Below the pieces are notes generated by a model, which was not told the origin of the DNA, ran no database searches, and saw only the letters and a program-made list of their open reading frames with translations. A DNA stretch of 64,000 nucleotides, from positions 558,001-622,000 of the forward strand of contig NMRA01000132.1 in NCBI GenBank assembly GCA_002633005.1, written 5' to 3'. This DNA comes from Phoronis australis. Lineage: Eukaryota; Animalia; Phoronida. This document shows positions 36,401 through 42,400 of the stretch, piece after piece (positions within the stretch are counted from its first letter, which is position 1; every line of letters begins with the position of its first letter). Both the position numbers and the translations under genes were made by a program.

Positions 36401-39400
36401 GCAGATGGATCAAGCTGCCAATCCAAATGCATCTAAACCAAGGTATTGTCTCATGATTTGTAGTAAAACTGTGTGCCACATTACTGCGAGATTGTGGAAT
36501 TCTCGGCTAGTGACAATTTAACTGAAGGAAGGTTTCATTTTGTTTTTTATCCCGTCGTCAAATTCACCAGATGGTCTTTGCTACTTAATGTCAACATTTT
36601 AGTATCGAGTCATTTTTGTTGGTGAACGTTTTTAGTTCTAGTTGTTGTTGTGGAGTGCCTGTGGTTTTCTCTAATATTGCGAAATTGACACCAACTGTTT
36701 TTATCACTGGTTCCAGGTGATCAGTGCAATGAGCTCACCTCAGGGGCCTCTGCACGTCTGGTACAACAGTGTCTTGAGCATTGTTCAGGAATAACATAGG
36801 CACTCTATCAGTGTTGTTGTTTAATTCAATGAAGGCATGCGGTTGTATTATTGAAGAACTGGCACATTACAGAGCTCGCCATCCTAGACGTAACACTGTG
36901 GAGATAAAACAAGAGATTTTGGATTTTGTCCAGAAAAATACAACAGATTATGAGGTACCAACTTCAAGATGGCTGCCGCTTAACAGCCATGGCAGCTTGA
37001 TTTCTTCTGAGGTTGCAGAAATAACCGGAAGCCATTTGAGCGTGCGCTGTTCTGTTCCATCTGTGCTCTAAAGACTCATTCTTCCCCCTTATTGTTTTGA
37101 GTGTGTTTCTACCTGATATGAGCTTTACATTTCTCTTTTTTCTAGATGACATACCCAAGTGTAAAACTCTGAACATGCTATCGTCATTGAGAGCTGTAAA
37201 AAGATTCATCTGTGTTACTTTCTTTCTACTGTTTTTCTTTTACAGTTTCAAATGAAAACGTGTTGTTATGACATTGTCTTATCTAGGTCTTTGTAAAACT
37301 TTATGTAATCACAGACAGCGTGCAAACTACTTTGCTCTACCCATCCTCTCCTACTGAGAGCATAGCATAAAATCCAACTCCTTCTCTGGTCTTTTTCATT
37401 TAGCTTTGATGCCCCTCTTTGTGCCCAAGCTCATACCAAAGCTTAAAAAGGCAATCGGTCAATTTGAAGTGCTCCACCTACATACTTATGTTCATGCTGT
37501 AGACATCCCCTTTAATCGTAAGGATTCGGAGAAATCTTTTTTGAGTTTCTTCAATGTCACATGGTCAGTCCAACCTTCTTCAATGTCACATGGTCAGTCC
37601 AACCAGTTGTATCCACATTCCAATCTCACTAAGGGGCTCATCATCAATAGAGTGACACCTATGAGATCATATCTAACTAGAAGCCTTGAAAGCAACTAGG
37701 CTCTGTTTTTCCATTTTATTTTGGGAACATTAAAACCTATGGAAACCATAAAATCTGAAGAGAGGAGTAAAAATTAGACTATGTAGGTACTGGAATTTTC
37801 AAAATTAGTCAAGTAAAAGCATTTTTGTCATTGAAAACCCAGGCCTTGAGCTTTCATTGGAAAGTAGTTTCCAGCATGGCTTAATCAGCTGGTTATACGC
37901 TTCATTGACTCACAATGGAAGCTGTGCCTGAAAGAATTAGGGTAAAACCAGTTGTGCTGAAGGAATCTCCTTTAAAGGGCATGTTCACAACATGAAATGT
38001 CTCGGTGGGAACTCTGGTCCTGTATACTGACCTAATCAAGCAAACTTCTGTTTCTATAACAAACTGTCTCAAAGTTCGGAGTCCTAAAATGCAAAGACAC
38101 TGGGTAGTCTACTCATTATAATAACAATATTTTAAGATATTGTAAAGGTGCTTTGCTTTACTTGTCTTTTTTCCTCAGTGACTTGAAACTTTGTTTCAGT
38201 TTGTTGTGGGTGTTAGGATGGTTGACTTTGTGTCAAAGATACCACTTGATTTGGGTACAAGTTCATTTCACTTGAGACCCTGCCCACTATTTTAGCATGT
38301 AGTTTATTGTCTTCGGTGTATGCTATTATAGTCTTGTATTTTTCGGCTTGCTTATAAGGCCACCTGGCTTTGAAGCCTGCCGCTGTAATTTCCCAGTCTT
38401 GTATGCAGATATTTATGGTAATTGTTCAGCTGACAATCTGGTTGTCTTTGACACAAATGGTCAAGTGGAGCTACGTTCTACATTTCAGGCTGTTCTCGGT
38501 GCTTTGTGTTGCCACTTTCCGTCATGATTTCCCTTCTCTACCTTAGTTTCTTTGCTGTTGCCGCGGCGACCACTAAAGCTGCCAATGCCTTTAAACAGCG
38601 TGCTAACGTAAATACAATAAAACAGGAGATACTGTCATTCGTTCAGGCCAATACCAGCAAATACGAGGTATGCTTCACGCTAAACCCTCCCTGCTTGAAT
38701 ATGTATGAATGAGTATGGGTGTGAAGTTCAGTTACCATTATTATTTTATGTAACAGTCTCACACGACAGGACACCTAAACAGCCTCTCTTTCCTTGCAAG
38801 CTTTTAATGTCGTCTTTGTCTACCTACAGCCGCCCTTCCCTGTCACTCAAGACTCTAAAGCAACTGTCTAACTAATCAGGATGAACCTTCCGTAACATTC
38901 ATCGTGTTGCTCTATCTTTTATGATTTTGTACGTTGTCATGTCCCTTGCATTATTCAACTTGCTCTCCTCTTTTGTACGTAAAACTATCTAATTAATTTT
39001 CTACCTTCCAGGACTAACAAACGGTACAGAATTGTGGCGTGGTCTGCTGTTTGTGAAAATTTACATACTTTATTACTAGTTTCGAGAAATTTAATTGCTC
39101 CATTGCCATAAAAGTTTGAATTATCACAACAATCAACAGTAAAATTTGAGTGATAGTAAATTTTGCAAATTGCAGTCCCGCTCATTTTTGTTGCTTGCTA
39201 ACTTTCTTACAGGTAATCTTTGACAGTGTTGTTCTGTCTGAGTATCCTAAAAATGTCCCCCACATCCAAATTCGGACTAATTGATTTAATTAATAAAAAG
39301 TGAATGAATTGTGGCAATTTTGTAGTACTAAAAGTTACGTCATTTGTTTACAAAAAAATCCCTTTTGTGTTGGGAAATCTTCGGTTTGATTTGTAGCTCA

Positions 39401-42400
39401 TCCTTATGAAATACCAAATTTGTGGGGCTGCACCTGCAGTCTGAGCGCTTTTTAATTGGTTGCTTTTTGCAAATCACAAGAACAGCACTGTCCCTTCTTT
39501 GTTATAGTCTTGTGATGTGTAAAAGTTGTCACTCGTGTCACTTAAAAGCTACGGTGATAAGTTCAACTTAAAGATGCACAGTCTTCTTAAATTGTGATAA
39601 GATTACACCTGTCTCCGTGAGATGTTTCCATAAACATTGTGGGAGTAACAGTTTTCACTTGTTAGTGACTACCATTCGTGAACCCATCCCTGGTGAGACG
39701 TAAAATGAGAGACAACTTTCACACTGTCATGTGCAACTCTTCTCAGGTATCATTACCTTCTCTATCAATTTCTTACCCTGCCTTGATCTCGCAGATTTGG
39801 TGGCGGTGTTCAAAGAAGCGCTAGTTCCATCAAAGATGCACTCTTGAAGTGGTGTCAGATGATGACAAAAGAATACCCTGTATGTATTTGTGGTTTTGGG
39901 CGTGGGGTGTAGTCATCACTGTTCAATGAGCTGGAATCAATATCTCACTGCATGCTGTTTTTTCAAATTTTCTTTATTTAATATCAAAGAAACGACGTTA
40001 CATTTGGTGAATGAATGACGATTATATAATCAGTATATACAACACCAGGTACAGTCGTTTCACTTCGTATGCTCACTGGTGATGATTAAAGAAACAAAAA
40101 CAAAGGTTATGGTCTTGAGTAATTTTTATATTTTGTATTCATTATTTAAGATTTAACCCAAAATTACACTCTGCTAGTTGTTTCTTTTATATTGGTGCTG
40201 TGGCCTAAAATAACACTTTGTGCCTAAGCCTCTACTTTTGGTTTCTGATCTTTGTATACTCAGGTAAGAAACTTATGAGGCATTGATTAATAATTAAAAA
40301 TAAAAATGACTTGCATTGCATAGTTTCCCTAACAAATGGTTAACAGAAATCGCCGGGCTGTCTATCACATCCATTTCCAGGTGCATGCTATACCTTAATA
40401 CTAGATAGACTTCAAGCATAACACTCTATGGATGTGTGTAAATTTAATATATGTGTGTGTGAACTGAACGTATAGAATGATAATGGAGTAGCTTATGCTT
40501 GCTTCTTTCTTGATTGAACAAATCATAATAGTTATTTTATCGAGAAAGCCTTGAATTTTTACCTCTCTTCTAAAAACACTGCCTTTGTTACTAACCTGTT
40601 ACTGTGGTCTAATCTATGTACTTGAAACTTAACTCAAGTAAATTTACAAATTTGTTCTGTAAATATGTGTTGGTTAAGTTTTGAGTCCGAGTTTGGAGAT
40701 TGGACCCTGGACCCTGTTTCTTGAATAGTGACTTAAGACAAGTCATAAGTTCACGGATACTGAATAAAGTTGATGTCTTGCAATAGTTGGCAAATCAGTT
40801 TAGACGTAATTTATGAAACTTATGCAACTAGAAATATCGGTATACAAAAGTCATGTTCTTTTGCCAAGGTGAGATAAAAATTATCAGAAACAGTTTTGCG
40901 AAGCATTTGACGAAATTTAATATTTATGTCATTTGAGTCACTTTTCCTGAAATGGAACCCTAGATATTCTCTCAACTCTACCTTTCGCTTACGGATTTGG
41001 GATTTTTTGTTTGTGCTGTGGTAAATTGTTTTGCCTGTGTATTTAAACGTTGTGTAATCATGGCGGGTAGTGTGTAAGATGTCCCGTTTCCAATGACGAA
41101 CTTTTTTAAAACTTATTCTTGTTTCCGGAAATATCTCATGCCAAATTGATGGAATTATTTGAAAAGCTACCCATGGTACTATATGACAATTTTTCACTAC
41201 TACATAAACTCAGGATTTAGCATTGTAAGGGTGTCAAAAGTTTTCATAACTGAATATTTTTGTTCGTAAGCTGTCATTGTTATAAACTTTTTGTTTGTTT
41301 TTATAAAACGAAGAGTGTACTAAACTAGGTTAATAGTTGTTCAGCAAATTTGAATCTGAACAAATAGGTCAAGTACTCCGTGAAATATTCTGCTATTAAA
41401 AGCAACATTGCTCTAGGTATTTCCCTTATGTTGAAACCCAAAACTCGAGTCATTGATAGCATTGTGTACAAAATATGTTTTAAACATCCTTTCATACATT
41501 ATGTTCAAAACTGTTCAGCTTGAAATTACCAACTTCTCGACCTCGTGGAATGACGGCATGGCGTTCTGCGCTCTAATCCATCACTTCTGTCCCGACGCCT
41601 TCGACTACAGCGCCCTCAACCCTAAGAACAGGGAACACAACTTTCAACTGGCATTTGATGCAGCAGAGTAAGTGCGTTTGATGTTACATGTACCCCTTGT
41701 ACCCCTATTTAACAAAAAAAATGTTAAAAGCATCAGTTCTAACTAATGGAAAATCCCAGACTTGGTTTTTGAGCATCTTTATGAAAGTTTTAATACAGAA
41801 AAGTTGGTGAATGTTGTTGAAAGGACTTGTTTCCTATTGATTTACCATTTCTAGAAACAGCATTTTTGCCAAAACACATGGTCACATGATTACGAGAATG
41901 GCACATGGTAGTGCTGTGAATGACATTATTGGATTCGTTTTGATTCCTGTTTTCACGAAATGTATACTTTTATGAATTGACAATCGCTAGTTACTTAAAA
42001 TTTCAAGAAGACAATATTTTAATAAGGGGCACAGATACCTTAATCAGTTAATGCTCTGACCATTGAACCGGAGATGTACATGTGTCACCTCTGTATTGTA
42101 AGCAGATTCAAGAGAATATTGTTAATGCTAGGACATCCACCTCAAATAACGTTCTCATCAGCTGTCCACAAAGTGAAATCTGATTGATAACCCACTTTTG
42201 TTGCCAGTAGTTAAGTTGTCCCTATGTATTGAGCTCTTGAGAGCTGCCACAACAGATGAAATATTGTCAAACTCCCGTATACTGACAGATCTGCCTAATA
42301 AAGGCTAATTAGGTAGATTTGTGCGTAGATGTGTTGCATCAGTCTCCAAGGTTTGCAAAATTGCATTTGCAAAATAAAACAAAATTTATTGAATAAATCC

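What the first reader, a model, noticed from the sequence alone, without database searches (positions are those of the whole stretch)
36873..39879. Three-way mutually exclusive exon cassette swaps the first helix of the smoothelin CH domain
Seen in sequence: between the constitutive exon ending at 36442 (phase 2) and the CH core exon at 41519 (phase 0) lie three GT-AG exons, all phase 2-0 and 82, 121 and 85 nt long. Their ends align: [66 protein letters not shown]. Joining A+B, A+C or B+C, or skipping all three, gives a premature stop (TAA in B, TAG in C, TAA in the core exon), so exactly one must be chosen. Established: SIK..LL.WC is the canonical first helix of smoothelin-type CH domains, and in CH domains this region contributes to actin-binding surfaces. 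A and B replace the conserved W-C with F-V and carry different leaders (basic RHPRR versus Ala-rich). Inference: a Dscam/Mhc-style switch that tunes CH partner binding, possibly by muscle type. I do not know of this cassette being described for smoothelin, and single-isoform annotation would miss two of the exons.
Basis: partly seen in the sequence, partly recalled or inferred. Interest (0 to 1): 0.9.

Follow-up and report, generated by a model that had tools for sequence, protein, structure and literature searches.

The report
Ancient either-or exons in invertebrate smoothelin
An invertebrate muscle-protein gene (smoothelin) holds three interchangeable versions of one small exon, and only a message with exactly one of them encodes the full protein; two of the version types recur in molluscs, a marine worm, horseshoe crabs and a priapulid, so this is likely a very old splicing switch that likely changes how the protein's tail domain is regulated.

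Summary
Exons A, B and C are AG-GT, phase 2-0, homologous, and only single inclusion yields the CH domain. RNA reads show C at both junctions, B only at its donor (10 reads) and A only at its acceptor (4 reads); no double-inclusion or skip joint was listed. The cassette is old: same-locus annotated isoforms with either a Trp-type (C-like) or a Phe/Tyr-type (A/B-like) helix I occur in nine species of Mollusca, Annelida, Chelicerata and Priapulida. The Phe/Tyr exons group together without the diagnostic column (88/75). A and B are synonymous-saturated duplicates under purifying selection (pS 0.94, pN 0.20). Corrections: the lasting change is Trp to Phe, not Cys to Val; this is a single CH2 domain, so direct actin binding is doubtful; public annotation already holds both types in other species; tissue specificity is untested. 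A likely effect is swapping a flexible Ser-motif linker for a predicted helical extension. The mechanism is a known kind (Mhc-like), but no description for smoothelin was found in the searches.

The parts
36361..36442 (+). Constitutive exon upstream of the cassette (82 nt, phase 1-2)
   Evidence: joints
36873..36954 (+). Exon A: Phe-type CH helix I with a short basic leader; likely duplicate of the Phe-type exon
   Evidence: acceptor joint 4 reads in X3; groups with the Owenia Phe exon 99/88; donor joint not seen
38547..38667 (+). Exon B: Phe-type CH helix I with a long Ala/Lys leader
   Evidence: donor joint 4+6 reads; helix closest to Lingula; acceptor joint not seen
39795..39879 (+). Exon C: canonical Trp-type CH helix I with a Gly-rich leader and R-S-x-S motif; major isoform
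   Evidence: both joints, 27 and 27 reads plus the X1 contig
41519..41667 (+). CH core exon (helices II-IV, 149 nt; vertebrate E19 is 152 nt)
   Evidence: Pfam CH positions 23-72, E 1.9e-12; joints; PMC10643981
42635..42785 (+). Coding part of the last exon (CH helices IV-VI, stop at 42783-42785); RNA coverage runs on as 3' UTR to about 44400
34672..34854 (+). Upstream cassette exon with two donors (34809, 34854), skipped in the X1 contig
   Evidence: joints 4+5 and 12+14 reads; X1 loose end maps to 32479-32508
29388..29465 (+). Smoothelin-domain exon piece
   Evidence: Pfam PF12510 E 7.3e-08
5120..8237 (+). Four Ig I-set exons, inferred to belong to the long isoform of the same gene
   Evidence: Pfam I-set; same architecture as Mya P0037; linkage by RNA not tested

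Best explanation
This is a cluster of three homologous exons for CH helix I of a lophotrochozoan smoothelin in which only single inclusion encodes the domain; it likely descends from a Trp-type/Phe-type exon pair of the protostome ancestor plus a later duplication of the Phe type, and it likely retunes how the CH domain and its upstream linker are regulated rather than how the domain grips actin. Shown: C is the major form and A and B are each spliced at one end. Inferred: full A and B mRNAs exist as minor, cell-type-regulated forms. Inferred: exclusivity comes from regulated splice-site choice, with nonsense-mediated decay removing skip and double products; the introns (1592 and 1127 nt) are too long for simple steric blocking and all are GT-AG. 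Predicted: C gives a disordered Gly-rich linker ending in a phosphorylatable R-S-x-S motif, B gives a helix that runs on into helix I and lacks that motif, and A gives the Phe helix without the long leader. By analogy with SMTNL1 this would alter linker-CH contacts and tropomyosin or calmodulin binding. Odds: W/F either-or splicing real 0.95; A a functional third choice 0.8; single protostome origin 0.75; linker-regulation mechanism 0.4; muscle-type specificity 0.5.
For: Frame logic. Junction reads. Same-locus either/or isoforms with identical flanks, F/Y:W = Ostrea edulis 8:3, Crassostrea virginica 10:2, Haliotis rubra 3:2, Liolophura sinensis 1:4, Mytilus galloprovincialis 1:1, Owenia fusiformis 1:1, Tachypleus tridentatus 2:2, Limulus polyphemus 1:1, Priapulus caudatus 1:4. 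With the aromatic column removed, 19 of 19 F/Y exons score closer to other F/Y exons than to W exons, and 22 of 25 W exons closer to W; F/Y is one side of a branch, 88/75 and 84% of bootstrap trees. A vs B over 17 codons: pS 0.94, pN 0.20; 0 of 100,000 neutral simulations keep that identity. 0 of 36 variable places in reads fall in A or B (P 0.02; 0.07 after dropping a repeat-like stretch). R-S-x-S in 17 of 25 W and 0 of 19 F/Y exons (rows share descent). AlphaFold on Liolophura isoforms: helix 297-329 continuous in the F type, helix 307-321 after a disordered linker in the W type; the F-type domain matches human smoothelin CH 2d87 at 1.1 A over 104 columns.
Against: A>core and upstream>B joints were not listed in any of 3 runs. 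Sense-strand depth in the cassette introns is 0.5-8 against 0-0.7 in the next intron, so the A and B reads may come from partly spliced RNA. With 4-10 reads, rare double inclusion is not excluded. Annotated isoforms are automatic models: some end just after the F exon (C. virginica X7, 3 of 9 S. cucullata), one skips both (Tachypleus X6), and three models join both exons (Pinctada, Nucella, Elysia crispata). The tree has 21 columns, its bootstrap had not settled and the F branch is not starred; the W exons of Priapulus, ant and Anopheles score closer to F. The predicted leader helix has pLDDT below 50 over 286-301 and 306-313, from 12 aligned sequences. B use did not differ significantly between X4 and X2+X3 (P 0.55). 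No binding or tissue data.
Confidence: 0.78

Rival explanations
1. Two-way switch plus a relic: B and C are the working pair, and A is a decaying or non-productive duplicate whose acceptor is only occasionally used.
For: Only 4 reads in 1 of 3 runs support A, none at its donor; weak pyrimidine tract, 45% against 77-82% for C and B; A lacks the conserved leader.
Against: Open frame and intact splice sites despite saturated synonymous divergence from B; 78% identity over 23 residues with the oyster F exon, higher than B's; groups with Owenia 99/88; no listed variants.
Confidence: 0.12
2. F-type exons work partly as alternative last exons: reading through the donor gives a short protein without the CH domain, so the switch is CH-on/CH-off rather than a helix swap.
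For: RefSeq models end one residue after the F exon in C. virginica and S. cucullata; here A is seen only at its acceptor and the introns behind A and B are covered by sense reads; read-through stops follow within 38 (A) and 14 (B) codons.
Against: B>core is directly read (10 reads); full-length F isoforms are annotated in 9 species; helix residues are conserved as a folded CH helix; intron coverage spans the whole cassette, including before A and after C, as expected for late splicing.
Confidence: 0.1
3. The helix swap directly tunes F-actin binding.
For: Removing the CH2 domain makes SMTNL1 diffuse from F-actin (PMC7240100, passage); helix I packs across helices III and VI and its Trp is among the most conserved CH residues (same paper).
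Against: Single CH2 domains bind actin about 1000-fold more weakly than CH1 or tandem pairs, and SMTNL1 partner sites map to helices V-VI and the upstream disordered region (PMC7240100, PMC5359911, passages).
Confidence: 0.2
4. Convergence: helix-I exons were duplicated independently in molluscs/annelids, chelicerates and priapulids and drifted to similar F-type sequences.
For: Leaders are not alignable between phyla; short alignment with unstarred support; Patella has two W-type exons, showing this exon duplicates repeatedly; exon order in other genomes was not seen.
Against: Shared F-type residues beyond the aromatic: N at -11 (16 of 19), I at -3 (16 of 19), N at +4 (16 of 19); chelicerate and priapulid F exons score 56-58 against mollusc F and 39-43 against mollusc W.
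Confidence: 0.2

Closest known systems
Vertebrate smoothelin SMTN E20/E21 splice switch (Garg and Fisher 2023, PMC10643981; parts 1-3 of 4 read)
   Same: Alternative splicing changes the single C-terminal CH2 domain; the same three-exon layout (helix-I exon 118 nt, core 152 nt, terminal exon) matches 82/121/85, 149 and the last exon here.
   Different: Vertebrates vary helices IV-VI through alternative terminal exons and keep the helix-I exon constitutive; here helix I and the linker are swapped by internal exons. The authors state they found no other case of splicing that makes variable CH domains.
Mutually exclusive exon clusters of metazoan muscle myosin heavy chain (Kollmar and Hatje 2014, PMC3912159; passages read)
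   Same: Tandem homologous exons in a muscle gene, clusters gained in the protostome ancestor, expanded or lost by lineage, absent from vertebrates.
   Different: Different gene and domain; Mhc clusters have measured effects and tissue patterns, this one has none yet.
Protostome-wide tandem exon substitution in Ca-alpha1T/cca-1 (PMC9741552; passages read)
   Same: An exon pair shared across protostomes and not seen in chordates.
   Different: Ion channel; the paper's main text has 0 mentions of SMTN or calponin.
Dscam1 docking-site/selector clusters (recalled, no call)
   Same: Exactly one of several homologous exons is kept.
   Different: Three exons instead of dozens; no complementary intronic elements tied to A, B or C were found.

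Membership tests
Mutually exclusive tandem-duplicated exon cluster | Neighbouring homologous exons with the same phases and compatible splice sites | tested here: met
Mutually exclusive tandem-duplicated exon cluster | Each exon spliced to both flanking constitutive exons | tested here: inconclusive
   C both ends; B donor only; A acceptor only
Mutually exclusive tandem-duplicated exon cluster | No transcripts with two exons or none | tested here: inconclusive
   none listed at the 3-read threshold, low depth; such products carry early stops
Mutually exclusive tandem-duplicated exon cluster | Either/or isoforms conserved in other species | tested here: met
   9 species with both types in full-length isoforms; A and B as separate exons not seen elsewhere
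Smoothelin family | Single C-terminal CH2 domain | tested here: met
   Pfam CH on core and last exons; nearest solved structures of the relative P0123 are 2d87 and 2jv9
Smoothelin family | Smoothelin domain PF12510 upstream | tested here: met
   E 7.3e-08 at 29388-29465
Smoothelin family | Muscle expression and tropomyosin/calmodulin binding | not testable with these tools
   run tissues not given; scallop smoothelin-like protein is enriched in catch muscle (PMC5963113, passages)
Dscam-type RNA-pairing cluster | Docking site complementary to a selector beside each exon | tested here: inconclusive
   no such pairing among 105 exon/flank pairs or 25 shown inverted repeats; only 80-nt flanks, no comparative genomes

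The most novel reading that the evidence does not exclude
An undescribed splicing switch from the last common protostome ancestor replaces the CH family's signature tryptophan helix and its phosphorylatable linker with a Phe-type helix carrying a rigid extension, making a distinct smoothelin for one muscle type (for example catch or slow against fast muscle). A and B would be two separately selected sub-types of that exon.
Probability: 0.3. Interest if true: 0.7.

Novelty: new member of a known kind. Interest (0 to 1): 0.5.

Why it matters
The role of the single CH domain of smoothelins is unsettled (PMC10643981), and that paper found no other case of splicing that varies a CH domain. A natural either/or pair, kept in four phyla, that changes helix I, its most conserved Trp and the adjoining linker gives matched variants for testing what this part does. 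It is also a candidate marker and regulator of invertebrate muscle types such as bivalve catch muscle. It explains faulty gene models that join both exons (Pinctada, Nucella, Elysia). The splicing mechanism itself is ordinary.

Tried and rejected
No genome is held for this window, so other loci and a second haplotype could not be checked. The run index listed no holder on record as RNA; raw reads of the same species label were laid instead. A protein search with exon B alone found no candidate (too short for the word index). A motif scan of metagenome contigs gave 2 loci, both chance matches in non-smoothelin DNA, so no genomic view of the cassette in another species was obtained. Docking-selector search: the best of 105 pairs (upstream exon with the intron behind the core exon, z -4.5) involves none of A, B or C; the rest were z -2.3 or weaker. 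False duplication by assembly was rejected for A/B (59% nucleotide identity with saturated synonymous sites, and both carry reads), unlike the near-identical duplications beside single N bases elsewhere. Steric and U2/U12 mechanisms were rejected on intron length and GT-AG ends, though distant branch points were not excluded. Differences in B use between runs were not significant or marginal (P 0.55 and 0.048 on 3-28 reads). Only W-type helices were seen in Octopus sinensis (17 of 17), Saccostrea echinata (6 of 6), Branchiostoma, spiders, scorpions, ticks, insects and barnacles; clusters are 90%-identity sets and lists are capped, so this is not absence. Earlier scan notes: nothing bearing on this locus.
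Full report
Observation. Each is bounded by AG and GT, is 1 mod 3 long, and translates as written. They lie between an upstream exon 36361-36442 and the CH core exon 41519-41667, followed by a last exon from 42635 with its stop at 42783-42785. 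Of the 8 possible combinations, only A, B or C alone gives the whole CH domain; the other five stop 91-325 nt before the last junction. Pfam finds CH on the core exon (E 1.9e-12), the smoothelin motif at 29388-29465 (E 7.3e-08) and four I-set Ig exons at 5-8 kb, the architecture of the long Mya protein P0037. The animal is a lophotrochozoan by inference. Several details match the annelid Owenia best (last exon 84% identity; same one-residue-short start of the core exon), but I did not place it further.

RNA. One contig set (X1) and three stranded raw runs of the same species label (X2-X4, one study, 18-19% of each read) were laid on 34500-44500. C is read at both ends: upstream>C in the contig and 9/12/6 reads, C>core in the contig and 2/22/3. 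B>core has 4/6/0 reads and upstream>A 0/4/0. Upstream>B, A>core and all skip or double joints were not listed, meaning fewer than 3 reads in every run. A second lay on 36790-38760 gave the same two A/B joints as loose ends with full agreement, and one row was hidden. So A and B are recognised as exons, C is the major form, and a complete A or B mRNA is not shown here. Sense-strand depth in the cassette introns is 0.5-8 against 0-0.7 in the intron after the core exon, so this region is spliced late or retained and some reads may be intermediates.

Conservation. A search with the Mya C-terminus and three cluster look-ups gave isoform sets whose helix-I segment comes in two types between identical flanks: a Trp type like C and a Phe/Tyr type like A and B. 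Both occur in full-length isoforms of nine species. F/Y:W counts are Ostrea edulis 8:3, Crassostrea virginica 10:2 (two annotation versions, plus one truncated), Haliotis rubra 3:2, Liolophura sinensis 1:4, Mytilus galloprovincialis 1:1, Owenia fusiformis 1:1, Tachypleus tridentatus 2:2 (3 more without core), Limulus polyphemus 1:1 and Priapulus caudatus 1:4 (1 without core). Saccostrea cucullata has the F exon only in 3 truncated models of 9. Models of Pinctada, Nucella and Elysia crispata join both exons. Lingula (2 of 2), Mya, Aplysia and Lymnaea showed only F in what was returned; Patella shows two different W exons; Octopus, amphioxus, spiders, scorpions, ticks and insects showed only W. 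These are automatic annotations and capped lists. The F-type hits all came from genome annotations, while the Logan/JGI proteins in that list were W type, which fits F being a minor form in bulk RNA.

Age of the pair. I took 22 residues around the aromatic from 19 F/Y and 25 W exons chosen one or two per species, and removed the aromatic column. All 19 F/Y exons score closer to F/Y than to W; 22 of 25 W exons score closer to W, the exceptions being Priapulus, an ant and Anopheles. In a tree of 21 columns F/Y is one side of a branch (88/75, 84% of bootstrap trees, not starred, bootstrap not settled). F/Y exons share N at -11, I at -3 and N at +4 (16 of 19 each). One origin before the lophotrochozoan/ecdysozoan split is the simplest reading; convergence is not excluded because exon order in other genomes was not seen. 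Vertebrates keep this exon constitutive (PMC10643981).

A and B. Over the last 17 codons they differ at 17 of 51 bases, 10 at third positions, with pS 0.94 and pN 0.20. None of 100,000 neutral simulations kept 13 of 17 residues. None of 36 variable places seen in reads lies in A or B (P 0.02; 0.07 without a repeat-like stretch). A is 78% identical over 23 residues to the oyster F exon and groups with Owenia (99/88); B keeps the long leader found in molluscs and Owenia and its helix is closest to Lingula. The likely history is an old duplication of the F exon after which A lost the leader. A weak pyrimidine tract (45%) fits rare use of A.

How it likely works. Splicing: introns of 1592 and 1127 nt and GT-AG ends exclude the simple steric and U2/U12 mechanisms, and no docking-selector pairing was found. 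Regulated splice-site choice with decay of skip and double products is inferred from the stop positions (established rule for nonsense-mediated decay, own knowledge). AlphaFold models of Liolophura isoforms keep the CH fold in both (about 90 pLDDT; F type against 2d87, 1.1 A over 104 columns), with a disordered linker before helix I in the W type and a continuous helix 297-329 in the F type, at low confidence in the leader. An R-S-x-S motif directly before the helix is in 17 of 25 W and 0 of 19 F/Y exons; its phosphorylation is untested. In SMTNL1 the disordered region contacts the CH domain, tropomyosin binding needs both, calmodulin sites lie upstream of the CH and in helix VI, and upstream phosphorylation shifts these bindings (PMC5359911, PMC7240100, passages). 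Single CH2 domains bind actin weakly (PMC7240100). I therefore commit to the reading that the cassette changes linker-CH regulation and so thin-filament partner binding (0.4), ahead of a direct actin-surface swap (0.2). Muscle-type specificity is plausible, since scallop smoothelin-like protein is enriched in catch muscle (PMC5963113, passages), but no call tested it.

Comparison and novelty. It works like the myosin heavy chain clusters, several of which date to the protostome ancestor and were lost in vertebrates (PMC3912159, passages), and like the protostome-wide Ca-alpha1T pair (PMC9741552, passages). It differs from the vertebrate SMTN switch, which varies helices IV-VI; that paper (parts 1-3 of 4 read) found no other splicing that varies a CH domain. 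Ten full-text searches, among them smoothelin with mutually exclusive exon, with bivalve isoform, with alternatively spliced invertebrate and with exon duplication, listed no description of this cassette. I saw listings for most hits, the library lacks subscription journals, and supplements were not opened. The isoforms themselves are already in RefSeq and GenBank under names such as titin homolog or unc-89-like.

Verdict. Observation confirmed; interpretation partly supported. Interest 0.5.

Noticed in passing
window 34672-34854: A second alternative exon with two donors (34809, 34854), skipped in the X1 contig; a homologous segment is also present or absent among Liolophura, oyster and Patella isoforms.
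   Followed up: partly
window 36443-41518: Sense-strand reads cover all introns of the cassette (depth 0.5-8) but hardly the next intron (0-0.7), suggesting late or detained splicing of the cassette.
   Followed up: partly
P0084, P0204 (ant, Anopheles): The only insect helix-I segments seen keep Trp but score closer to the mollusc Phe type (52-54) than to the Trp type (36-38); insects may have kept the Phe-lineage exon.
   Followed up: no
P0159, P0278, P0149, P0291 (Patella): Two different Trp-type helix-I segments alternate in both Patella species, an independent expansion of the cassette.
   Followed up: no
P0233, P0244, P0251, P0253 (oysters): Annotated isoforms end one residue after the Phe-type exon, so they lack the CH core; real last-exon use or an intron-retention artefact.
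   Followed up: no
P0394, P0469 (Lingula): These isoforms end in a Lys-rich tail like that described for SMTNL1 and SMTN E20+, unlike the mollusc and window C-termini; an alternative last exon may be older than vertebrates.
   Followed up: no
window 25986-29153 and 10318-11734: Near-identical tandem duplications (about 1.57 kb and at least 0.3 kb) with single N bases at 27558 and 11029; likely two haplotypes assembled in tandem.
   Followed up: partly
window about 47100-58200, minus strand: A spliced DEAD-box helicase gene (TPTRELA, SAT and HRCGRTAR motifs; the name DDX55-like is recalled) converging on the smoothelin gene, with a 20-24-nt tandem array at 53900-54530 in one intron.
   Followed up: no
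window 29958-30090 and 30292-30411: Two adjacent similar coiled-coil exons, matching the repeated basic-acidic helices of mollusc smoothelins; whether they are alternative was not tested.
   Followed up: no
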